Assembly: GCA_026415295.1 (NCBI GenBank)
Contig: JAOAHJ010000031.1
Location: 3,098-67,097 of the forward strand
Reading direction: 5' to 3'
Length of the DNA: 64,000 bases
DNA from: Spirochaetota bacterium
GTDB lineage: Bacteria > Spirochaetota > JAAYUW01 > JAOAHJ01
Shown here: in pieces, positions 2,274 to 35,308 of the stretch
How the letters are laid out: the number at the start of each line of letters is the position of its first letter
How positions within the stretch are numbered: position 1 is the first letter of the stretch
The notes under the pieces: model-generated
The model's input: the letters and a program-made list of their open reading frames with translations, nothing else
What the model was told of the DNA's origin: nothing
The model's database searches: none
Program-made: the position numbers and the translations under genes

Positions 2274-4019
2274 TTATATTATTAAATCTGGTAAATATTT
2301 TGAAAAAAATTTATTAATTTCTTCCTCAACTTCAGATATATATTTTTTTTGAAGAATTGTTTCGACAAGTTTTTTACAATCTTCGTATCTAATTGAACAA
2401 ATTATTTTTTTTAACTCATTAGTATATATAGGAGATATTGAAAAATTTTTTAATCCAAGTCCTATTAAAATTGGAACGGATTTAACATCTGAAGCCATTT
2501 CTCCACACATCGAAATTTCAATGTTATTTCTATGTGCAGCATCTATTATGATTTTTAGTGCTTTTATTACTGCAGGATTTGAATATTTAAATAGATATGC
2601 AACCTTTTCATTTCCCCTATCACATGCAAGAAGATATTGGATAAGGTCGTTAGTTCCTATAGAAAAAAAATCGCACTCTTTGGCAAAGTTATCTAAATTA
2701 AAGATTATTGAAGGAACTTCAACCATTATTCCAAATTTATATTTTTCGGTGTGCTCAATATTTTGTTTTCTTAAAGTTTCTAAAACTTCTTTAATAATTT
2801 TTTTTGCTTCAATGACCTCTTCTATGTTAGTAATCATTGGAATCATGATATAGAGATTTTTTGAATAATAGCCTGCTCTCAAAATTGCTCTTAATTGAGT
2901 TTTAAATATTTCTAATCTTTCAAGGCAAAATCTTATTGCTCTCCAACCCAAAAATGGGTTTTTTTCAAATGGGGTATTATATCCTGGAATAACTTTATCT
3001 CCACCAAGGTCAAGGGTTCTTATTATTACTTTAGTTTCTTTAGAAAAGAAGTCAAATATTTGTTTATATTTTTTGTATTGATATTCTTCATCAGGAAAAC
3101 TGTTATTTTCTAAAACTAAAAACTCAGATCTAAAAAGTCCTATCCCTGAACTACCATTTTCTTTTACTAGTTGTAATTCTTCAAGTATTTCAATATTTGA
3201 AAGTATCTCTATTTTTCTACCATCAAGTGTAATAGGAACTCTATCTCTAAATATTTTGATACTTTGTTCAAATTCAAATAACTTCTTTTTAAGAAAATAA
3301 GCTTCTTCAAGTTCTTCTTCTGATGGATTTATTATTATTTCACCTTTAGAACTATTAAGAATAACTATATCTCCATTTTTAATTTCAGATGTAATAAACT
3401 CAACACCAAGAACTGTAGGTATATTTAAAGCTCTAGCCATTATAGCCATATGTGATGCTTCTCCACCAATTTCTGTAACAATTCCTAAAATATAATCTTT
3501 CTTTAATAGTGCAGCATCAGTTGGAGATAGAGTTCTGCAGAAAAGTATAGATTCTTCTTTTAATGATTCTAAAGATGGATGTGATTTTTTGAGTAGATTT
3601 CTCATTAATCTTTTGCCAATAGCTGATATATCTTCAGTTCTTTCAGAAAAAATAGAACTTTCGATATTTTTAAATTTAGAGATAATTTCATTTAATACAG
3701 TATATAAAACCCATTCTATATTTTTTTGAGTATTTTCAAGTTCTTTAATAATCATGTCTATTATAACTTTATCATCAAGCATCATAAGGAGGGATTTATA
3801 TATATCTTTTTTATCTCCAGATAAAGAATTATTCAATGATTCTTCTATATCTTTTATTTCTTGTTTTGTTTTTTCAATAGCCTTAAAAAATCTATATTTT
3901 TCATACTCAATATTTTCTATATCATATTTTGGTATTGAAAAAACATCTTCAAGATATAAAAAAGCTTTACCAATTACAAGTCCAGGTGAAGCTGAAATTC
4001 CTTTAAATTTTTTTCCCAT
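2274..4019 (-). CDS. ptsI: PTS enzyme I (PEP-protein phosphotransferase)
   Basis: GISASPG, active-site GGEASH, GIGLFRSEF, RTLDLGGDK, GWRAIR, FSIGTNDL and CGEMA motifs. Confidence 0.96.
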   Translation of the reverse strand: MGKKFKGISASPGLVIGKAFLYLEDVFSIPKYDIENIEYEKYRFFKAIEKTKQEIKDIEESLNNSLSGDKKDIYKSLLMMLDDKVIIDMIIKELENTQKNIEWVLYTVLNEIISKFKNIESSIFSERTEDISAIGKRLMRNLLKKSHPSLESLKEESILFCRTLSPTDAALLKKDYILGIVTEIGGEASHMAIMARALNIPTVLGVEFITSEIKNGDIVILNSSKGEIIINPSEEELEEAYFLKKKLFEFEQSIKIFRDRVPITLDGRKIEILSNIEILEELQLVKENGSSGIGLFRSEFLVLENNSFPDEEYQYKKYKQIFDFFSKETKVIIRTLDLGGDKVIPGYNTPFEKNPFLGWRAIRFCLERLEIFKTQLRAILRAGYYSKNLYIMIPMITNIEEVIEAKKIIKEVLETLRKQNIEHTEKYKFGIMVEVPSIIFNLDNFAKECDFFSIGTNDLIQYLLACDRGNEKVAYLFKYSNPAVIKALKIIIDAAHRNNIEISMCGEMASDVKSVPILIGLGLKNFSISPIYTNELKKIICSIRYEDCKKLVETILQKKYISEVEEEINKFFSKYLPDLII

Positions 4020-6047: not shown

Positions 6048-7361
6048 TTAATCAACATAAAGAAATAGACATTTTAAGTAATGAGTTTCTCTTGCATAAA
6101 TCAAGATAGGATGATCTTCACTCTGATAGCCTACATCTATAATTTTTGCAATTCTATTAGCTTTCTTGGCTGCAGTCATTACTGCATCAATAAAGTATTC
6201 AAGTGAAATACGACCTGTACAACTTGATGTAATTAAAAAAGATTTATTAGAGAGAAGATTAAAAGCAAGATAATTAATATCAATATATCCTTTAATTGCT
6301 TCCTTAATTTTTTTATTGGAATGAGTAAGTTTTGGAGGGTCTAATATTATTAAATCATATTTATTTTGTTTTGAGATTTCATTTTTGGTAAATTTAAAGT
6401 AATCTTCTACATAGAAATCAATATTTTGAAATTTGTTTAATATTTTATTTTCTTTTGCAGTTTTTATAGCTTCTTCAGAGCAATCAATACTTAATACTTT
6501 TTTAGCTCCACCTTTAATACAATTAAAACCAAATCCTCCAGTATAACAAAAAAAATCAAGAACATTTTTTCCTTCTGCATATTTTGAAACTTTAAATCTA
6601 TTATTTCTCTGATCATAATAAAAACCTGTCTTTTGTGTACTACTAAAATTGATTTTATATTTTATTTCGTTTTCTTCAATTATTGTATAAAAGTTATTAA
6701 TTAAATTTTCTATTTCTTTGTTTTCAATTTTATTTTTATTAATTTTTATATAACTTTTATTATTGTAATATTCAAGATAATTTTTTAAGCTAACAATTTC
6801 ATTATTTATTAAATGTTTATTGTTAATCAGGATTTCATCTTCGAAAAAGAGTCCCTCTTGTTTTTTGATATGAGTTTCATTTTTAATTATAATAATTTCA
6901 GGTGAAAAAAATTCTATTAAAACCTCAATGATTATTTTTAAATATGAAAATGACAAAAGAGATGTAATTTGTATTACCAAATAGTTATTATATTTATCAA
7001 TAGTTAATCCTGAAAATCCATCAGACTCAGAATAAAATATTCGACATGATAGTTCATTAATATTCTTCTTAAATAAATTTTCTCTTAATTTAAAAGCATT
7101 ATTAAAAATATTATTAAAAAATGATTTATCTAGAATATCAATTTTAGAATTTGATATAACTCTTATTCTTATATCACTGTTTTCATTATAAAAACCTGTA
7201 CCTATGAAATTATTCGAATTATCAAAAATGTGAATTAGTTCTCCTGTTTGGGGCTTTGAAGGATTATATGATAGAATAGCCCCTTCAAATATCCATGGAT
7301 GTCCATATAAATATTTATTTTTATTTATTATAGCTTTTTTATTTACAATAGATTTTTTCAT
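6048..7361 (-). CDS. rlmI: class I SAM-dependent rRNA methyltransferase, RlmI family
   Basis: GHPWIF, SESDGFSGLTID, QKTGFYYDQR, VLDFFCYTGGF, ILDPP and SSCT motifs. Confidence 0.88.
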   Translation of the reverse strand: MKKSIVNKKAIINKNKYLYGHPWIFEGAILSYNPSKPQTGELIHIFDNSNNFIGTGFYNENSDIRIRVISNSKIDILDKSFFNNIFNNAFKLRENLFKKNINELSCRIFYSESDGFSGLTIDKYNNYLVIQITSLLSFSYLKIIIEVLIEFFSPEIIIIKNETHIKKQEGLFFEDEILINNKHLINNEIVSLKNYLEYYNNKSYIKINKNKIENKEIENLINNFYTIIEENEIKYKINFSSTQKTGFYYDQRNNRFKVSKYAEGKNVLDFFCYTGGFGFNCIKGGAKKVLSIDCSEEAIKTAKENKILNKFQNIDFYVEDYFKFTKNEISKQNKYDLIILDPPKLTHSNKKIKEAIKGYIDINYLAFNLLSNKSFLITSSCTGRISLEYFIDAVMTAAKKANRIAKIIDVGYQSEDHPILIYARETHYLKCLFLYVD

Positions 7362-7675
7362 CCTAAAATGTCTTCATATGGTATTTTTAAATCAATTTTT
7401 TGACTAATATTTTCAAATGAAAAAGAATATGAGTATGCTTTATTAAGATTTGTAACTTTTGATGGAATATTTTGAGAATTTTCTGCTTTGGTAAGATAGA
7501 AAAACGATGCTTTTTGTAAAAAATCTTCAAGTGGTGAAGTTTTATTTAAAGAATTATTTTCGTTTATGATTGAATTACCATTGGTATTATGTAGATTCTT
7601 GTATTTATTATTATTAGATAATAGATTATTAATAAGAATTGATGAATATAAATTATTATAACCTATTATTTTCAT
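7358..7675 (-). CDS. hypothetical Asn-rich small protein
   Basis: 105-aa ATG ORF whose stop overlaps the rlmI start (ATGA), suggesting translational coupling. Confidence 0.6.
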   Translation of the reverse strand: MKIIGYNNLYSSILINNLLSNNNKYKNLHNTNGNSIINENNSLNKTSPLEDFLQKASFFYLTKAENSQNIPSKVTNLNKAYSYSFSFENISQKIDLKIPYEDILG

Positions 7676-7763
7676 AACACATTTAACTTTCTAAAAATTT
7701 ATTTTAATTATAAAATATAAGATAATTATCTAATACTTTCTATAGAAATTATAATACAAAAAA

Positions 7764-8633
7764 TTAATTTTTAAATAATAAACTTATAAAATATAAAATA
7801 CTCATAAAAATAATAAATATTGGAGTAAATGGTAAATTTAGGTTATAACTAAAAAACAAAGATATATATGAGGCAAAAATATTAACAATAAAAGAAATAA
7901 TAATAACATTTTTCAAATTCTTATTAAGGTTTAATGCAATCATAGCGGGTAAAGTAAATAATGCTATGATTAGAAGTATTCCAACTATTTGTATTAAAAG
8001 AAAAACTGTTAATGAAATTGATAATATAACTAAAAATCTTAGCAAAGAAACTTTTATTTTTTTTATCTTAAGGAGTTCTTCATCAAAACCAAAAATAAAT
8101 AAAATATTAAAAAAAAGTGCAAAAAAAATTATTATAAATAGAGTAATAAAAATAAGCAGGTAAAAACTATTTTTATCTAAAAGTAAAATGTTACCAAAAA
8201 GATATTTTTGTATTTCTTGATTGTAACCAGGAGTAAGGAAAATAAAAAAAATACCTACTGCCATTCCAAGTGACCATATAATACTTAATATTGAGTCAAC
8301 CCTTTCATTTTTTTTATTAATTAATCTTTCAATAATTATTGAATAAATAATTGTAAAAAGTAAACCACCATTAAAAGGATTGAAAATTTCATAGGAAGTC
8401 AATTTATAAATATAGTTAAATAATCCAATACCTCCAAGAACTCCATGAGATATAGCTCCTGCAATATATGTTTGTCTATTAATTACCGTATATGTTCCTA
8501 TTGTTGAAGAAAGAAGGGAGACAAAAAATAAAGAAAAGAAACTATATTGCAAAAAATTATAATTTGTTAGTGCATCAAAAAAATCAGCAAAGAATTGAAA
8601 TAATGTTAAATTATTGAGAATAAATTTTAACAT
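7764..8633 (-). CDS. znuB: Zn/Mn ABC transporter permease
   Basis: ABC-3 family motifs (GTYTVINRQTYIAGAISHGVLGG, YLFGNIL, VGILLIIALFTLPA). Confidence 0.9.
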   Translation of the reverse strand: MLKFILNNLTLFQFFADFFDALTNYNFLQYSFFSLFFVSLLSSTIGTYTVINRQTYIAGAISHGVLGGIGLFNYIYKLTSYEIFNPFNGGLLFTIIYSIIIERLINKKNERVDSILSIIWSLGMAVGIFFIFLTPGYNQEIQKYLFGNILLLDKNSFYLLIFITLFIIIFFALFFNILFIFGFDEELLKIKKIKVSLLRFLVILSISLTVFLLIQIVGILLIIALFTLPAMIALNLNKNLKNVIIISFIVNIFASYISLFFSYNLNLPFTPIFIIFMSILYFISLLFKN

Positions 8634-8650
8634 TAATTGCCCTTTTTTAT

Positions 8651-9424
8651 TTAATTAGACGAAGATTTGTGATCAACTTTTTTTATATTACAATTATAAA
8701 AATCTTTACTTATAAAATTTAGTAAATCATTATTATTTAGGTTAATATTTTTTGCTTGATGCATTATTAGTTTTCTATTTAAACAAAAAATTTTATCAGA
8801 TATTTCAGGTACAATATCAATATCATGAGAAATTAAAATAATAGTATTTTGTTCTTTTAGTTTTTGAAGTTTTTCATATATAAAAATTTGTGTTTCTCTA
8901 TCTAAATTGGATGTTGGCTCATCTAGTATTATAACTTCAGATTTAGAGGCTAAAGCTCTTGCAATCAAAATTTTTTGTTTTTGCCCTCCTGATAATTCCT
9001 TAAAAGATTTTTTTGCTAAATTTTCAATTTTTAATTCCTTCAAAATTTGATAAGCAAATTCTATATCATCTTTTTTGTAAAAATTAACAAATTTCTTTTT
9101 TTTTAATCTTCCTGACAGAACTATATCAATTGCAAGTATCGGATATAGTGGATCATAGTTTAAAAATTGTGGAACATAAGAAATATTTATATCATTAACT
9201 AAATTATTATCCCTAAAATATTTGATAGAACCACTTGATGGCTTATAAATACCAAGGAACAATTTGGCAAGGGTTGTTTTACCACTTCCATTTGGTCCTA
9301 TAATAGAAATGAAATCATCTTTAAATATATTAAAGGAAATATCTTCAAGTATTGGATACTCATCATATTTAGAAAAATAATAGTAAACATTACTAAATTC
9401 AATTAATAAATATTTTTTATTCAT
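8651..9424 (-). CDS. znuC: Zn/Mn ABC transporter ATP-binding protein
   Basis: GPNGSGKTT, YVPQ, LSGGQKQK, LDEPT and ISHD motifs. Confidence 0.9.
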   Translation of the reverse strand: MNKKYLLIEFSNVYYYFSKYDEYPILEDISFNIFKDDFISIIGPNGSGKTTLAKLFLGIYKPSSGSIKYFRDNNLVNDINISYVPQFLNYDPLYPILAIDIVLSGRLKKKKFVNFYKKDDIEFAYQILKELKIENLAKKSFKELSGGQKQKILIARALASKSEVIILDEPTSNLDRETQIFIYEKLQKLKEQNTIILISHDIDIVPEISDKIFCLNRKLIMHQAKNINLNNNDLLNFISKDFYNCNIKKVDHKSSSN

Positions 9425-9454
9425 ATTTTAATTTAATTTTATCTTATCTTTTAT

Positions 9455-10399
9455 TTAGTAATATACCTGAAAAATTCTATATAGATTATCAAATGTTTCA
9501 AATATATTATAATTAAGAATGTTAATCTGTTCGATTTTTAAATTTAATTCTTTTTTAAAGACTCCTTCATATGAAGTTGGAAAGTGTGGACTTGTTATAA
9601 ATACTTTAATGTTATTCATTCTAGCAATTTTAAAGAGATAATTTAAATCTTTTAATGTAGGTTCTTTTCCTTCAATTTCAACTAATATTTGTTTTATATT
9701 AAAATCTTTTGAAAAATAAGTTAATATAGGGTGGTAGACGAGTATAAATTTAATATTCTTCTCTTTTATTATTTTATTAAATAAATCAATATAATTATCT
9801 ATTTTTAAAATTAAATTATCAGAGTTTTCTTTAGCAATTTTTTGTAAATCAGGATAATTATTTTTAATAAATTCATAAATGTTTTTAAGAATTATTTTCA
9901 AATTAATTAAGCTTACCCAGATATGAATATCGAATTGTTCATAATTTTTATTATTATTTTGATTAAATTTTTTATTTGTATTGTTTTTTGTTGAATTTTC
10001 ATTTTTATTATCAGTTTCATGATCAATATTTTCTATTAATTCAATTCCTTCTGAAATATTATATATTAAGAGATTTGAGTTTGTTCTTTTTATTTTTTCA
10101 ATAATTATGGTTTCAAAAGGAAGATTTGTTGAAAGATACACGGAAGCTTGAGCTAATTTTTCCAAATCCTTTGGTAAAACTTCAAAAGTATGGGGTTCGA
10201 AATTTTTATTTATTATTGTCTTTACTTCAATTTTATTATTTGAAATAAAATCTATTAAGTATTTAATGGGTTCAATTGATGTGTAAATAATTTTATTGCC
10301 TTGAGTAAACTTTTTATTGCAAGAAATATAGGAAAAAAAAATTAGTATTATAAATATAGTAATAATTAATTTTGACAAAAAAACATTTTCCTTTAGCAT
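9455..10399 (-). CDS. znuA: Zn/Mn ABC substrate-binding lipoprotein (cluster A-I)
   Basis: Signal peptide with lipobox-like YISC; metal-ligand motifs EPHTFE, DIHIW, YHP and EGKEP. Confidence 0.88.
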   Translation of the reverse strand: MLKENVFLSKLIITIFIILIFFSYISCNKKFTQGNKIIYTSIEPIKYLIDFISNNKIEVKTIINKNFEPHTFEVLPKDLEKLAQASVYLSTNLPFETIIIEKIKRTNSNLLIYNISEGIELIENIDHETDNKNENSTKNNTNKKFNQNNNKNYEQFDIHIWVSLINLKIILKNIYEFIKNNYPDLQKIAKENSDNLILKIDNYIDLFNKIIKEKNIKFILVYHPILTYFSKDFNIKQILVEIEGKEPTLKDLNYLFKIARMNNIKVFITSPHFPTSYEGVFKKELNLKIEQINILNYNIFETFDNLYRIFQVYY

Positions 10400-10521
10400 A
10401 TTTAAGATTTTATAAATTTATATTAATTTATTTTTATTGATTAAAAAACCAATCATAAAAAATTAATTAATATTTTGTTATAAGATTTAAAAATTTTTTA
10501 ATTATTAAAAAATAATTAATT

Positions 10522-10809
10522 TTATTTACTTTTTTTACATTTTATGAAAATTTCTCCACATTTATTACATTTTAAAATTTCATGATTAATTAAAAGTTCT
10601 TCAACATGTTTTTTTTGGTTTTCATTTAAAACACCGCTACCATTGCATAATGGACAAACATTTTCCAATGCTTTTAATATGGCAATTCTAATAAAATTAG
10701 ATTTATCTTCTATAAAAGATAATCTTTCATATAGGTTTTTGTCAATTTTTAAAGATATAATATAATTTTTTTTGTTAATTTTATTCCTTTTATTATTTTT
10801 AATTTCCAT
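10522..10809 (-). CDS. CopG/ribbon-helix-helix regulator fused to a Cys/His zinc-finger
   Basis: IISLKID...DKSNFIRIAI (RHH beta-alpha-alpha), then CPLCNGSG, H, H, CNKC, C. ATG 10809 is preferred over the track's TTG 10839, which lies inside the promoter. Confidence 0.8.
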   Translation of the reverse strand: MEIKNNKRNKINKKNYIISLKIDKNLYERLSFIEDKSNFIRIAILKALENVCPLCNGSGVLNENQKKHVEELLINHEILKCNKCGEIFIKCKKSK

Positions 10810-10827
10810 AATATTATTAATCAAAAA

Positions 10828-10856
10828 AAAGTAATACAAAGTATTAAAATTGTCAA
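10828..10856 (-). promoter_or_regulatory. sigma70 promoter (TTGACA-17-TACTTT) containing a TAATAC-N3-GTATTA inverted repeat
   Basis: -35 at 10856-10851, -10 at 10833-10828, palindrome at 10832-10846. Confidence 0.7.
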
Positions 10857-11055: not shown

Positions 11056-11967
11056 ATGATTTTAGCTCTTATTTCAGCTTTATTCTCAAGTATTTGTTGG
11101 GCACACAACTCAATAGTTTATACTTTAGCAGGAGAAAGAGTTGGTTCTAAAACTGTTGCAAATATTAGATTATGGTTTTCTATACCATTTTCTATTATTT
11201 TTAATTTGATTTTTTTAAAAAGCTTTATTCCAATTCCTACAAACCAGATTAGTTTTTATTTATATTCCTTACTTTCTGGTTTTTTAGGGTTTTTTTTAGC
11301 TGATTTGTTAATTTTTGAAGCTTTTGTTTTAATTGGACCAAAAAATACTCTTATAACTTTAACTTTGACTCCAGTATTTAATATTATATTTGGTTATCTT
11401 CTATTTAAGGACATTTTTAACATCAAACAAATTATTGGTTCATTTTTCGTTATAATAGGAATTATTGGTGTTATATATTTTGATAACAATAGTAAAGAAG
11501 AAAACATAAGTGATCAAAAAATAAAAAAAGAAGAATATTTTATTGGATTTTTGTTAGCTGTTGGTGGTGCTTTTATTCAATCTCTTGGTTCTGTTTTTGC
11601 TAAATATTCTTTTAACAGCAATGTTGGCCCATTTGAAACTAATTTTTATAGATTAATTGGTGGATTTGTTGGAATAAATTTATATTCTTTAATTAAAAAG
11701 GAGTTAAAGAATGATTTTTTAAAGATGAAAGATAAGAAATCTGTTTTTTTGATTTCATTTGGAGCTTTAGTCGGGCCTGTTCTTGGCGTATCTGCAGCTC
11801 TTTATTCTATAAAGAAAATTTCAATAGGATTAACATCAGTGCTTACAAATTTGTCTCCTGCTTTTGTTGTACCAATGGAATATTTTATCATGAAAAAAAA
11901 GATAAATAAGGTAGTATTAATTTTTATTTTAATATCTATTTTAGGGACAATTGCAATATTTATTTAA
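11056..11967 (+). CDS. DMT/EamA-family transporter
   Basis: About 10 TM segments in two EamA repeats; SD AAGGA upstream. Confidence 0.9.
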   Translation: MILALISALFSSICWAHNSIVYTLAGERVGSKTVANIRLWFSIPFSIIFNLIFLKSFIPIPTNQISFYLYSLLSGFLGFFLADLLIFEAFVLIGPKNTLITLTLTPVFNIIFGYLLFKDIFNIKQIIGSFFVIIGIIGVIYFDNNSKEENISDQKIKKEEYFIGFLLAVGGAFIQSLGSVFAKYSFNSNVGPFETNFYRLIGGFVGINLYSLIKKELKNDFLKMKDKKSVFLISFGALVGPVLGVSAALYSIKKISIGLTSVLTNLSPAFVVPMEYFIMKKKINKVVLIFILISILGTIAIFI

Positions 11968-34037: not shown

Positions 34038-34084
34038 ATTACGAATAGTTAAAAAATATTTTAATATGAAGTATTAAAAAATAT

Positions 34085-35308
34085 TTAATTAAAAAAATAG
34101 AAAAAATAGACAAGTGTAAATATATCATTTAGTAAATTTTTTATATAACAATACTCATTGGGTTGATGTGATGTATTATCATTTGTACACCATGCAATTG
34201 CAGGTATTTCATTAATCCTGAAAAATGAAGCTGTAGTAAGTTTTCCATGTCCTCCAATTCTAATATCAATTTTCTTTAATTCTTTTAATACAGATGTAAA
34301 GTTTTTAATAAAATATATGTCTTTGTTCAAGGGAGGAGGTGATTGAAATTTAAATGGGAAAGTTATTTTTAGTTTTATATCATTAAGTTGTTCAAATTTG
34401 TTTTTGAGTTCCTTAATTTCACTAATTATTGATTCAACATCATATACTGGTAATATTCTACAATCGATAAATAGCTTAGTGTATCCTGGAATAGTATTAA
34501 AATTATCAATATTTGAATTTATGTAAGTAGGTTCAAATGAAGAATAAGGATTTTCAAATGTTTTATCATAATCATTATATTTATTGTAAAGAAAATTTAT
34601 TAATTCATTAGCAAAATTAATAATAGCTCTAGTACTGTTTTTCCCTTTTAATGGATTTGAACTATGAGTCTGTTTCCCGAAAGCTTCAATTTTGAGCCAT
34701 AATACAGATTTTTCAGCTATTTCTATAAAAGCACCATCTGCAGAACCTGAATCTAAAACTAGAACCATATCATCCTTATTGAAAATATTATTTTGGAATA
34801 AAAATTTTATTCCATGCTCAGACCCAGTTTCTTCATCAGAAACAATTAATAAGGATAAATTATATTCAGGCAAAATATCAAGTTTATCTAAAATAATTAG
34901 AGTAAAAATACCTGTAGTTATACTTTGTTTTGTTTCTGAACCTAATCCGAAAATTCTATTAGAGTTTTCAATAGGTTCAAAAGGGTGATACTTCCATTCT
35001 TTAATATCACCTTCACCTACTGTATCCATGTGTGTAACAATATAAAAACATTTATCTTTTCTTCTACCATTTAATGAAGCAAGTATATTGTATCTATTAC
35101 CAAGTATTAAATCTTCGCAAATAAATGTTTTTGTATTAATTGCTCTATAATTAGATAAATAATCTAAAATAAATCTAGCAAGTGTTTTTTCACCTGGTCC
35201 ACCTAATCTTGGGTTAATAGAGTTAATTCTTATTATTTCTTTCAAAAAACTGATTATATCTGTTTTATGTGATTCTATCTGTTTTAATATTTTATCCTTT
35301 ATATCCAT
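34085..35308 (-). CDS. M20-family metallo-hydrolase (DapE/ArgE-like)
   Basis: THMDTV, SDEETGS, VLDSG, IAEKS, QTHSS and HQPNE motifs. Confidence 0.88.
   Translation of the reverse strand: MDIKDKILKQIESHKTDIISFLKEIIRINSINPRLGGPGEKTLARFILDYLSNYRAINTKTFICEDLILGNRYNILASLNGRRKDKCFYIVTHMDTVGEGDIKEWKYHPFEPIENSNRIFGLGSETKQSITTGIFTLIILDKLDILPEYNLSLLIVSDEETGSEHGIKFLFQNNIFNKDDMVLVLDSGSADGAFIEIAEKSVLWLKIEAFGKQTHSSNPLKGKNSTRAIINFANELINFLYNKYNDYDKTFENPYSSFEPTYINSNIDNFNTIPGYTKLFIDCRILPVYDVESIISEIKELKNKFEQLNDIKLKITFPFKFQSPPPLNKDIYFIKNFTSVLKELKKIDIRIGGHGKLTTASFFRINEIPAIAWCTNDNTSHQPNEYCYIKNLLNDIFTLVYFFYFFN

What the first reader, a model, noticed from the sequence alone, without database searches (positions are those of the whole stretch)
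7764..10856. Candidate Zur-independent metal regulon: an RHH-Zn-finger regulator heads the znuACB operon
Seen: the first gene of the minus-strand metal ABC operon encodes a 95-aa protein. It has a ribbon-helix-helix DNA-binding start (IISLKID...KSNFIRIAI) fused to CPLCNGSG (DnaJ-like CxxCxGxG), two His, CNKC and a further Cys. No Fur/Zur/MntR gene is in the locus. Established: ZnuABC operons are normally repressed by Zur or MntR/DtxR; the RHH metalloregulator NikR uses a different, ACT-like sensor domain. Inference: this is a compact Zn-sensing autorepressor of a family I know only as 'CopG family regulator' and cannot recall being characterised.
Basis: partly seen in the sequence, partly recalled or inferred. 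Interest (0 to 1): 0.78.

Follow-up and report, generated by a model that had tools for sequence, protein, structure and literature searches.

The report
Uncharacterised zinc-uptake operon repressor family
A 95-residue DNA-binding protein with a zinc-finger tail heads a zinc-importer operon, and it belongs to a large, unstudied family that sits in front of zinc importers and behind one conserved operator in many bacterial phyla, so it is probably a new type of zinc-sensing repressor.

Summary
On the minus strand a 95-aa gene (10522-10809) precedes genes for a ZnuA-type binding protein, an ABC ATPase and an ABC-3 permease. No Fur, Zur or MntR gene lies in the 64-kb window.

The protein has no Pfam or NCBIfam family of its own. 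It belongs to a large family (157 representatives at 50% identity, more than 3000 clusters at 90%). Sources name it only 'ribbon-helix-helix / CopG family'.

- In 71 of 80 loci from several phyla the gene adjoins znuA-znuC-znuB or znuC-znuB on the same strand.
- In 75 of 79 loci a bipartite operator, GTAWTAC-N3-GTAWTA, lies upstream, usually 5 nt after a TTGACA -35 box and covering the -10.
- The window holds its only perfect copy at 10831-10846, between TTGACA and the start codon.
- Cys52, Cys55, Cys81, Cys84, Cys91, His68 and His76 are conserved.
- Three remote paralogues lacking His76 and Cys91 are not linked to znu genes.
- The linked binding proteins keep the three zinc-ligand histidines of Synechocystis ZnuA.

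Best reading: a zinc-dependent RHH autorepressor of zinc uptake, like NikR in logic but with a different sensor domain.

The parts
10851..10856 (-). -35 box TTGACA of the operon promoter
   Evidence: Read directly. In homologous loci TTGAC lies within 14 nt upstream of operator box 1 in 49 of 75 sites, most often 5 nt away.
10831..10847 (-). Bipartite operator TTAATAC-TTT-GTATTAC: two 7-bp near-palindromic boxes, 10 bp centre to centre
   Evidence: It is the only 0-mismatch match to GTAWTACNNNGTAWTA and the only 1-mismatch match to the 17-mer in the 64 kb. The same motif lies upstream of the regulator gene in 75 of 79 related loci, against 0.042 sites per kb elsewhere in those loci. The closest relative L081 has a perfect copy directly after TTGACT.
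10522..10809 (-). 95-aa RHH + zinc-ribbon regulator (N-terminal ribbon-helix-helix about residues 16-49; C52xxC55xGxG, H68, H76, C81xxC84, C91)
10400..10521 (-). 122-bp spacer between the regulator gene and znuA, with no terminator-like site and no operator of 2 mismatches or fewer; co-transcription is inferred
   Evidence: The closest relative has only 30 nt here.
9455..10399 (-). ZnuA-type periplasmic or lipoprotein zinc-binding protein with the three-His ligand set (H70, H159, H223) and a His-poor, Asn/Lys-rich loop
   Evidence: PF01297 1.8e-34. Best solved relative is Synechocystis ZnuA 1PQ4, 1.7e-26, with the three His motifs aligned. The His triad is kept in 37-40 of 40 linked ZnuAs.
8651..9424 (-). 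ABC transporter ATPase (ZnuC/AztA-like)
   Evidence: PF00005 2.4e-29; NF040873 AztA 5.2e-42, below its cut-off.
7764..8633 (-). ABC-3 family permease (ZnuB/AztB-like)
   Evidence: PF00950 2.8e-52.
7358..7675 (-). 105-aa ORF of unknown function directly downstream; possibly the last gene of the transcript (uncertain)
   Evidence: No Pfam hit. It is conserved at 41% identity, at the same position, only in the closest relative L081-L083.

Best explanation
The 95-aa protein is a transcriptional autorepressor of a zinc-import operon (regulator-znuA-znuC-znuB). It represents a widespread, uncharacterised family of RHH metalloregulators.

Shown by computation:
- The gene heads the operon.
- Its family is almost always adjacent to ZnuABC-type genes.
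- One operator, GTAWTAC-N3-GTAWTA(C), is conserved across phyla at the operon promoter, between the -35 box and over the -10 box.
- The binding proteins are of the three-His zinc type.
- Five Cys and two His of the C-terminal domain are conserved.

Inferred:
- Two RHH dimers each place a beta-ribbon in the major groove of one 7-bp box, on the same face of the helix. They occlude RNA polymerase.
- C52, C55, C81 and C84 form a structural Cys4 zinc ribbon.
- H68, H76 and C91 (plus H88 and H85 in most homologues) form a second, regulatory site. When it is filled at zinc sufficiency, it stabilises the DNA-binding oligomer.
- When zinc falls the site empties, the repressor leaves, and both the importer and the repressor are made.

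My odds for each step: controls this operon through this operator, about 0.9. Acts as a repressor, about 0.8. Zinc is sensed directly by the C-terminal domain, about 0.6.
For: - **Operon anatomy:**
- **Synteny:** 71 of 80 loci have znuACB or znuCB adjacent on the same strand. The two AT-rich relatives P0002 and P0037 do as well.
- **Operator, unbiased count:** the 7-mer GTAATAC/GTATTAC occurs in 58 of 76 upstream regions and in none of the top control k-mers.
- **Operator, pattern scan:** the bipartite site is upstream in 75 of 79 loci, against 0.042 per kb background. TTGAC lies 5 nt upstream of box 1 in 38 loci, and box 2 coincides with the -10.
- **Operator tracks the znu promoter:** where gene order differs, the site stays with the znu promoter rather than the regulator gene. 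In L071 the regulator is last and the site is upstream of znuA. In L088 the site lies in the 247-nt gap before znuA.
- **Window site:**
- **RHH support:**
- **Conserved residues (n=323):** C52 and C55 100%, C81 and C84 90%, C91 86%, H68 88%, H76 84%.
- **Paralogue contrast:** remote paralogues lacking H76 and C91 (P0061, P0144, P0088) are not next to znu genes.
- **Zinc-type binding proteins:** the three-His triad is kept in 37-40 of 40 linked ZnuAs, and His-rich loops have a median of 4.5 and up to 10 His.
- **Other regulators nearby:** a Fur-family or MntR gene lies within 6 kb in only 4 of 84 loci and nowhere in the window.
Against: - No experiment and no expression data exist. The only run holding this DNA is a hot-spring DNA metagenome.
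- Metal binding is inferred from conserved Cys and His alone. I could not inspect the geometry of the model.
- The window protein is a stripped-down member. It lacks H85, H88 and H93, and has V for W69 and L for F72 and F20.
- Its ZnuA loop holds a single His.
- In the window and its closest relative the -35 box is only 3 nt from box 1, so the -10 assignment is weaker there.
- Whether these genomes also encode Zur is unknown.
- Three related loci have a Fur-family gene nearby. In L069 it is directly upstream of the regulator.
- The pattern scan selects its own core positions. Only the flanks and the k-mer count are unbiased.
Confidence: 0.6

Rival explanations
1. The protein is a metal-blind autoregulator. 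It binds the operator and damps or buffers operon expression, but its zinc ribbon is purely structural. The metal response comes from another factor (Zur, another Fur-family protein, or a riboswitch) acting elsewhere.
For: A Cys4 ribbon alone would explain four of the five conserved Cys. Many RHH proteins are simple autorepressors. Fur-family genes lie near the locus in L023, L030 and L069.
Against: H68, H76 and C91 are conserved beyond the Cys4 set, and are missing in the three non-znu paralogues examined. Many homologues have His/Asp/Glu-rich tails (88 of 323 with 2 or more His). The near-exclusive linkage to one transporter type over several phyla is typical of a dedicated sensor. No second conserved motif was seen at the promoters.
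Confidence: 0.2
2. The protein is a sensor of something other than zinc sufficiency. It might sense another divalent metal (Mn, Fe, Co, Ni), or thiol oxidation that ejects zinc from the Cys-rich domain as in Hsp33, RsrA or DnaJ-type fingers. The importer would then be induced by oxidative stress or by a different metal.
For: Cluster A-I binding proteins include Mn and Fe carriers. The SBP, permease and ATPase all fall below the NCBIfam equivalog cut-offs for ZnuA/AztC, ZnuB and ZnuC. The C-terminal domain is nearest to DnaJ and anti-TRAP zinc knuckles.
Against: The third metal ligand of the binding protein is His, not Glu, in 40 of 40 linked proteins. The best solved relative is a zinc-specific ZnuA, and His-rich loops are common.
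Confidence: 0.12
3. The protein is not a transcription factor. It would be a small zinc chaperone or holdase that serves the importer, or an orphan RHH antitoxin.
For: A DnaJ-like CxxCxGxG motif is present. The protein is very small. Some sources call it a 'DnaJ-class molecular chaperone'.
Against: The N-terminal RHH signature is conserved. A phylum-spanning operator lies at exactly the promoters it accompanies. No toxin partner is present in any locus.
Confidence: 0.03

Closest known systems
NikR (nickel-responsive RHH repressor of nikABCDE)
   Same: It has an N-terminal ribbon-helix-helix DNA-binding domain fused to a C-terminal metal-binding domain. It represses an ABC metal importer when the metal is sufficient. 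Its operator has two half-sites bound by a dimer of dimers. It is the only RHH metal sensor listed in the 2024 metallostasis review (PMC11672702).
   Different: NikR's sensor is an ACT-like tetramerisation domain with a His3Cys square-planar nickel site. Here the C-terminus is a roughly 45-residue zinc ribbon or knuckle with one helix. Only 1 of 49 homologues gives even a weak NikR hit, through its RHH part. The protein is about 95 aa, against about 133 aa for NikR. The cargo is zinc, not nickel. The operator boxes are 3 bp apart, whereas NikR half-sites are 16 bp apart (from my own knowledge).
Zur (Fur family) and AdcR/ZitR (MarR family) zinc-uptake repressors
   Same: The predicted job is the same: zinc-loaded repressor of znuABC/adcABC-type importers. 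It is often autoregulated and encoded in the operon. The layout of a structural Cys4 site plus a regulatory His/Cys site resembles Zur.
   Different: The fold is unrelated (winged helix in Zur and AdcR). There is no sequence similarity (no Fur or MntR match to this gene). The operator is different.
Anti-TRAP (RtpA) and the DnaJ cysteine-rich domain
   Same: The CxxCxGxG zinc knuckle is followed by a short helix. The family profile matches anti-TRAP chains 3LCZ at E=1.2e-4 and 2BX9 at 3.2e-3. Sub-threshold hits are found to PF00684 and PF15777.
   Different: Those proteins have two or four CxxCxGxG repeats and no DNA-binding domain. Here the second Cys pair is a plain CxxC, with extra conserved His and Cys. 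All scores lie below the curated cut-offs.
CopG / Arc / MetJ plasmid and phage RHH repressors
   Same: The DNA-binding fold is the same. The operators are short, tandem or inverted repeats that overlap the promoter. The proteins are autorepressors.
   Different: These have no metal-binding extension, and they occur in plasmid copy-control, phage or methionine contexts.
CdrL (VNG0195H) of haloarchaea
   Same: It has the same domain order: an RHH_1 domain followed by a zinc-ribbon domain (PMC7439475).
   Different: Its C-terminus is a double zinc ribbon (PF12773), which no member of this family hit. It lies in a cell-division locus (cdrS-ftsZ2), and it is archaeal.

Membership tests
Ribbon-helix-helix superfamily (CopG/Arc/MetJ; Pfam RHH_1 PF01402) | N-terminal beta-strand followed by two helices, recognised by RHH profile models | tested here: met
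   The window protein alone has no hit at E<=0.1. However, 16 of 49 aligned homologues hit PF01402 (best 3.4e-6) and 41 of 49 hit the RHH model NF053762 (best 3.5e-8). The AlphaFold model with the alignment (pLDDT 85) has helices 24-30 and 36-49 after an unstructured segment at 16-22.
Ribbon-helix-helix superfamily | Binds tandem or inverted short repeats as a dimer of dimers | not testable with these tools
   This is only indirect. Two 7-bp boxes 10 bp apart are conserved at the promoters.
NikR | C-terminal ACT-like metal-binding and tetramerisation domain (NikR_C) with a His3Cys site | tested here: not met
   No NikR_C hit. The C-terminus is a CxxCxGxG...CxxC zinc ribbon. NikR NCBIfam models are hit by 1 of 49 members, at 2.6e-5 or weaker.
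Fur/Zur and DtxR/MntR metalloregulators | Winged-helix DNA-binding domain plus a dimerisation and metal domain | tested here: not met
   tblastn with Fur, Zur, PerR and MntR queries finds nothing in the window. There are no such Pfam or NCBIfam hits.
DnaJ cysteine-rich domain / anti-TRAP | Repeated CxxCxGxG motifs that bind zinc pairwise, scoring above the curated threshold | tested here: inconclusive
   There is one CxxCxGxG motif plus one CxxC. PF00684 scores 18.1 bits against a cut-off of 32.7, and PF15777 scores 14.2 against 32. The family profile matches anti-TRAP chains at 1.2e-4. This shows a resemblance, not membership.
ZnuABC-type (cluster A-I) zinc ABC importer | PF01297 binding protein + ABC ATPase + ABC-3 permease in one operon | tested here: met
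   PF01297 1.8e-34, PF00005 2.4e-29, PF00950 2.8e-52.
ZnuABC-type (cluster A-I) zinc ABC importer | Zinc-type ligand set: three His, with the third ligand His rather than Glu | tested here: met
   H70, H159 and H223 align with the PHT, PHIW and FHP motifs of Synechocystis ZnuA 1PQ4. That these are its three Zn ligands is from my own knowledge of that structure. The triad is conserved in 37-40 of 40 linked homologues.
ZnuABC-type (cluster A-I) zinc ABC importer | His/Asp/Glu-rich flexible loop | tested here: not met
   The window loop (39 residues) has 1 His and is Asn/Lys-rich. Linked homologues have a median of 4.5 and up to 10 His. The loop is not obligatory for zinc binding proteins; AztC and TroA lack it (my own knowledge).
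ZnuABC-type (cluster A-I) zinc ABC importer | Reaches NCBIfam equivalog cut-offs for ZnuA/AztC, ZnuB or ZnuC | tested here: not met
   AztC scores 67.7 against a cut-off of 350, ZnuA 55 against 268, AztA 143.6 against 220, and AztB 101.7 against 280. These are divergent members.

The most novel reading that the evidence does not exclude
This RHH + zinc-ribbon family would be a previously unrecognised major class of bacterial metal sensor. It would take the place of Zur as the primary zinc-uptake repressor in Planctomycetota, Desulfomonilia and Syntrophia, many Spirochaetota and other mostly uncultured lineages. It would use one near-universal operator (GTAWTAC-N3-GTAWTAC) and a two-site design: a structural Cys4 site plus a regulatory His/His/Cys site.
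Probability: 0.5. Interest if true: 0.85.

Novelty: new variant of a known kind. Interest (0 to 1): 0.76.

Why it matters
Only a handful of protein families are known to sense metals in bacteria. Zinc uptake is attributed almost entirely to Zur, or to AdcR/ZitR in streptococci and lactococci. NikR is the only RHH-type sensor listed in a recent comprehensive review (PMC11672702). A second RHH metal sensor with a new, very small sensor domain would add a family to that list. It would also explain how zinc uptake is controlled in large and poorly studied phyla.

The work here yields a ready-made operator for predicting regulons in metagenomes. At about 80-100 residues the protein is one of the smallest candidate metal-switchable repressors, which suits structural work and biosensor design. 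The claim is directly testable with one purified protein and a 17-bp DNA.

Tried and rejected
- **Word-based homologue search:** the window protein found only itself. The exhaustive HMMER search was needed.
- **Exact look-up:** the window protein is not on record.
- **Single-sequence AlphaFold:** the model was poor, pLDDT 52. The alignment-based model reached pLDDT 85.
- **Foldseek against the PDB:** nothing better than E=0.9. This is expected for an extended RHH monomer, so no fold-level relative can be claimed.
- **PHROGs and PDB sequence searches:** only noise for the single protein.
- **Promoter and terminator consensus scan:** uninformative in 20% GC DNA, with 39 sites found against 41 expected.
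- **The search for related loci with the full alignment:** failed for lack of a conserved stretch. It worked with a tighter alignment, which biases the 80 loci towards relatives of a Thermodesulfobacteriota query.
- **Whole-genome search for zur in the own genome:** shut.
- **Further regulon members in the window:** sites with 1-2 mismatches lie inside fabF-like, M20 peptidase, L11 and rpoC genes, or next to a PAP2 gene. None is zinc-related. Sites with 3 mismatches are at chance level, 192 found against 154 expected.
- **Second operator in the 122-bp regulator-znuA spacer:** only a 3-mismatch match, so rejected.
- **Antitoxin reading:** rejected, because no toxin partner is present in any locus.
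- **Literature:** seven searches found no description of the family. The 'CopG family' gene in the Paracoccus zinc study is unrelated.
Full report
**1. What is in the window**

The window is very AT-rich, 18-31% GC. Between 7764 and 10856 the minus strand carries four closely spaced genes.
- A small ORF at 10522-10839. It gives 105 aa from a TTG, or 95 aa from the ATG at 10809.
- A 314-aa ZnuA-family binding protein at 9455-10399 (PF01297, 1.8e-34).
- A 257-aa ABC ATPase at 8651-9424 (PF00005, 2.4e-29; closest NCBIfam models AztA and ZnuC).
- A 289-aa ABC-3 permease at 7764-8633 (PF00950, 2.8e-52).

Upstream, an EamA transporter gene is transcribed divergently. Downstream lie a 105-aa ORF without any family and an RlmI-like methyltransferase. 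tblastn with Fur, Zur, PerR and MntR finds nothing in the 64 kb.

**2. The protein belongs to a large, unnamed family**

No Pfam or NCBIfam model reaches its threshold. The only hits are weak ones to DnaJ_CXXCXGXG, Lar, YgiT-type fingers and anti-TRAP. A word-seeded search found only the protein itself.

The exhaustive HMMER search of 1.84 billion representatives gave 157 hits at E<=1e-3 and 42 at E<=1e-10. A profile search found 3071 clusters at 90% identity. Source names are 'ribbon-helix-helix domain-containing protein', 'CopG family transcriptional regulator', 'metal-responsive CopG/Arc/MetJ family transcriptional regulator', 'hypothetical protein' and a few mis-annotations.

The N-terminal part is an RHH. 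Of 49 aligned members, 16 hit PF01402 and 41 hit the 38-residue RHH model NF053762. The alignment-based AlphaFold model (pLDDT 85) has two helices at 24-30 and 36-49. These are followed by a knuckle, a helix at 63-75 and a beta-hairpin at 76-91. Foldseek finds no solved structure with this architecture. By sequence profile the C-terminal half is nearest to anti-TRAP, E=1.2e-4.

Over 323 distinct members the conserved positions are as follows.
- C52, C55 and G57 are present in 100%.
- P53, G59 and R41 are present in 99%.
- S37, F39 and I40 are present in 98%.
- C81 and C84 are present in 90%. The shortfall is partly from gaps at those columns.
- H68 is present in 88%, C91 in 86% and H76 in 84%.
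- H88 is present in 71% and H85 in 51%.

The window protein keeps the five Cys and H68 and H76, but has F88 and G85. It is a minimal, AT-biased member.

**3.

I searched 80 loci with the window's ZnuA, ZnuC and ZnuB. The loci come from Thermodesulfobacteriota (Desulfomonilaceae, Syntrophaceae, Desulfarculaceae), Planctomycetota, Spirochaetota, Bacillota, Verrucomicrobiota, Zixibacteria, Sumerlaeota and others. With two more cases resolved by Pfam (L077 ZnuA 2e-82; L032 ABC-3 fragment), 71 of 80 have znuA-znuC-znuB or znuC-znuB adjacent on the same strand.

In 70 of these the transporter genes lie directly downstream of the regulator. In L071 the regulator is the last gene. Of the nine others, two are cut by the contig end.

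The closest relative (P0002, 60% identity) shares the whole neighbourhood: Metallophos, EamA, then divergently regulator-ZnuA-ABC-ABC3-105aa-RlmI. A 78-aa AT-rich member next to a TP_0437-family gene is also followed by ZnuA-ABC-ABC3.

Three remote paralogues (P0061, P0144, P0088) lack H76 and C91, and they are not next to metal transporters. The linkage is therefore a property of the clade that carries the extra His and Cys. Three cases are a small sample.

**4. A conserved operator**

An unbiased k-mer count on 220 nt upstream of 76 regulator genes gave GTAATAC/GTATTAC in 58 of them. A control coding region gave nothing comparable.

The sites form a bipartite element, GTAWTAC-N3-GTAWTA. It is present with 2 mismatches or fewer, mostly 0, within 250 nt upstream in 75 of 79 loci. 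Elsewhere in the same loci the rate is 0.042 sites per kb. Several of those 'elsewhere' sites are themselves promoter-like.

The unselected flanks show cTTGACa ending 5 nt before box 1 in 38 of 75 sites. Box 2 (GTAWTAa/t) coincides with the -10 hexamer at a 16-nt spacer. The element therefore fills the core promoter.

Where the gene order differs, the operator stays with the znu promoter.
- In L071 the regulator is last, and the site lies 50 nt before znuA.
- In L088 the site lies in the 247-nt gap before znuA.

In the window the only perfect 16-mer match in 64 kb is at 10831-10846. On the coding strand it reads TTAATAC-TTT-GTATTAC. It lies 3 nt after TTGACA (10856-10851) and 21 nt before the ATG. 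The closest relative has a perfect GTATTAC-TTT-GTATTAC after TTGACT. An earlier first-reader note (e1-5219522) had flagged the same palindrome from sequence alone. The comparative data here give it independent support.

The TTG start of the 105-aa ORF version lies inside box 2, so the 95-aa version is preferred.

**5. Which metal**

The best solved relative of the binding protein is Synechocystis ZnuA (1PQ4, 1.7e-26). The three motifs that carry its zinc-ligand histidines align with H70, H159 and H223 of the window protein. The ligand identities are from my knowledge of that structure.

In 40 linked binding proteins the three positions are His in 37, 39 and 40 cases. The third ligand is never the Glu typical of manganese carriers. 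The loop before the second His holds a median of 4.5 and up to 10 His. The window's own loop is Asn/Lys-rich with one His, which fits its extreme AT bias. Zinc is thus the most likely cargo across the family.

**6. Mechanism proposed**

Computation shows the following.
- The operon structure.
- The link between the family and znu genes.
- The operator at the core promoter.
- Binding proteins of the zinc type.
- The conserved Cys and His pattern.

The following are inferred.
- Two RHH dimers occupy the two boxes, one helical turn apart, and block RNA polymerase.
- C52, C55, C81 and C84 form a structural zinc site.
- H68, H76 and C91, plus H88 and H85 in most members, form a regulatory site.
- Filling that site at zinc sufficiency favours the DNA-bound oligomer.
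- Loss of zinc derepresses both the importer and the regulator.

This is the logic of NikR and Zur, carried out with a different and much smaller sensor domain.

**7. Rivals**

- A metal-blind autoregulator with purely structural zinc (0.2).
- A sensor for another metal or for thiol oxidation (0.12).
- A chaperone or antitoxin (0.03).

Arguments for and against each are given in the Rival explanations section.

**8. What could not be done**

I therefore cannot say whether this genome, or carriers in general, lack Zur. 'Zur-independent' stays a hypothesis.

Earlier notes from this scan, which I did not check, say the genome is an uncultured spirochaete and has a PerR-like Fur-family gene in an oxidative-stress cluster.

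Within 6 kb of the regulator, Fur-family genes occur in 3 of 84 loci and an MntR-like gene in 1. No RNA data exist; the only run holding this DNA is a hot-spring metagenome.

**9. Novelty**

Seven full-text searches found no description of an RHH + zinc-ribbon regulator of znu genes or of this operator. The 2024 review of bacterial metal sensing mentions the RHH fold only for NikR. The nearest architectural analogue in the literature is haloarchaeal CdrL, an RHH plus a double zinc ribbon in a cell-division locus.

The library does not cover subscription journals, so a published characterisation cannot be excluded. I rate the finding as a new variant of a known kind: a metal-responsive RHH repressor with a new sensor module and a new metal. 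Interest is 0.76.

Noticed in passing
P0003 (185 aa, Elusimicrobiota), P0152/P0153 (173-174 aa), P0040: Some family members are tandem fusions of two complete RHH + zinc-ribbon modules in one chain. This amounts to a natural 'single-chain dimer', which fits the obligate dimerisation of RHH domains.
   Followed up: no
L004 ~2956-3000, L009 ~917-960, L016 ~3448-3490, L019 ~3524-3570, L023 ~3276-3320: In Desulfomonilaceae a second promoter (TTGACA) carries two tandem copies of the bipartite operator. It precedes a 570-580-aa secreted protein with no Pfam, NCBIfam or PDB relative, about 2.5 kb upstream of the regulator. This is a likely extra regulon member, perhaps an outer-membrane zinc channel.
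   Followed up: partly
L071 3290-3305 and L088 2954-2969: Where the regulator gene is last in the operon (L071), or is separated from znuA by a 247-nt gap (L088), the operator sits at the znuA promoter instead of upstream of the regulator.
   Followed up: partly
L069 5486-5851; L023 ~11478-11876; L030 ~7731-8129; L052 9051-9410: A Fur-family gene lies directly upstream of the regulator in one Planctomycete locus, and about 5 kb downstream in two Desulfomonilaceae loci. An MntR-like gene follows znuB in one spirochaete locus. These lineages may therefore combine two metal regulators.
   Followed up: partly
L033 6281-6919, L047 6305-6958, L072 6201-6953, L075 1271-1909: In four loci the gene directly downstream of the regulator is a 212-250-aa protein without any family hit, instead of znuA. 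One has a weak LiaF-TM-like membrane segment. Three of these loci keep the operator.
   Followed up: partly
window 7358-7675 (-): A 105-aa Asn-rich ORF directly after the permease gene has no family. It is conserved (41% identity, same position) only in the closest relative L081-L083.
   Followed up: partly
L091 5001-7165 (P0144 subfamily): A remote paralogue has an extra C-terminal Cys-rich extension and lacks the H76 and C91 signature. Its gene overlaps a 215-aa unknown gene and is followed by a GFO/IDH/MocA oxidoreductase gene in three independent contigs. This looks like a separate, also uncharacterised, regulator-target pair.
   Followed up: no
window 10837-10839 (-): The TTG that gives the 105-aa version of the ORF lies inside operator box 2. 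Automatic ORF callers that take the longest ORF would mis-start this gene.
   Followed up: yes
window 34061-34077 and 35094-35110: Weak operator-like sites (2 and 1 mismatches) lie before a PAP2-family gene and inside an M20 metallopeptidase gene. They are judged to be chance matches in AT-rich DNA.
   Followed up: partly
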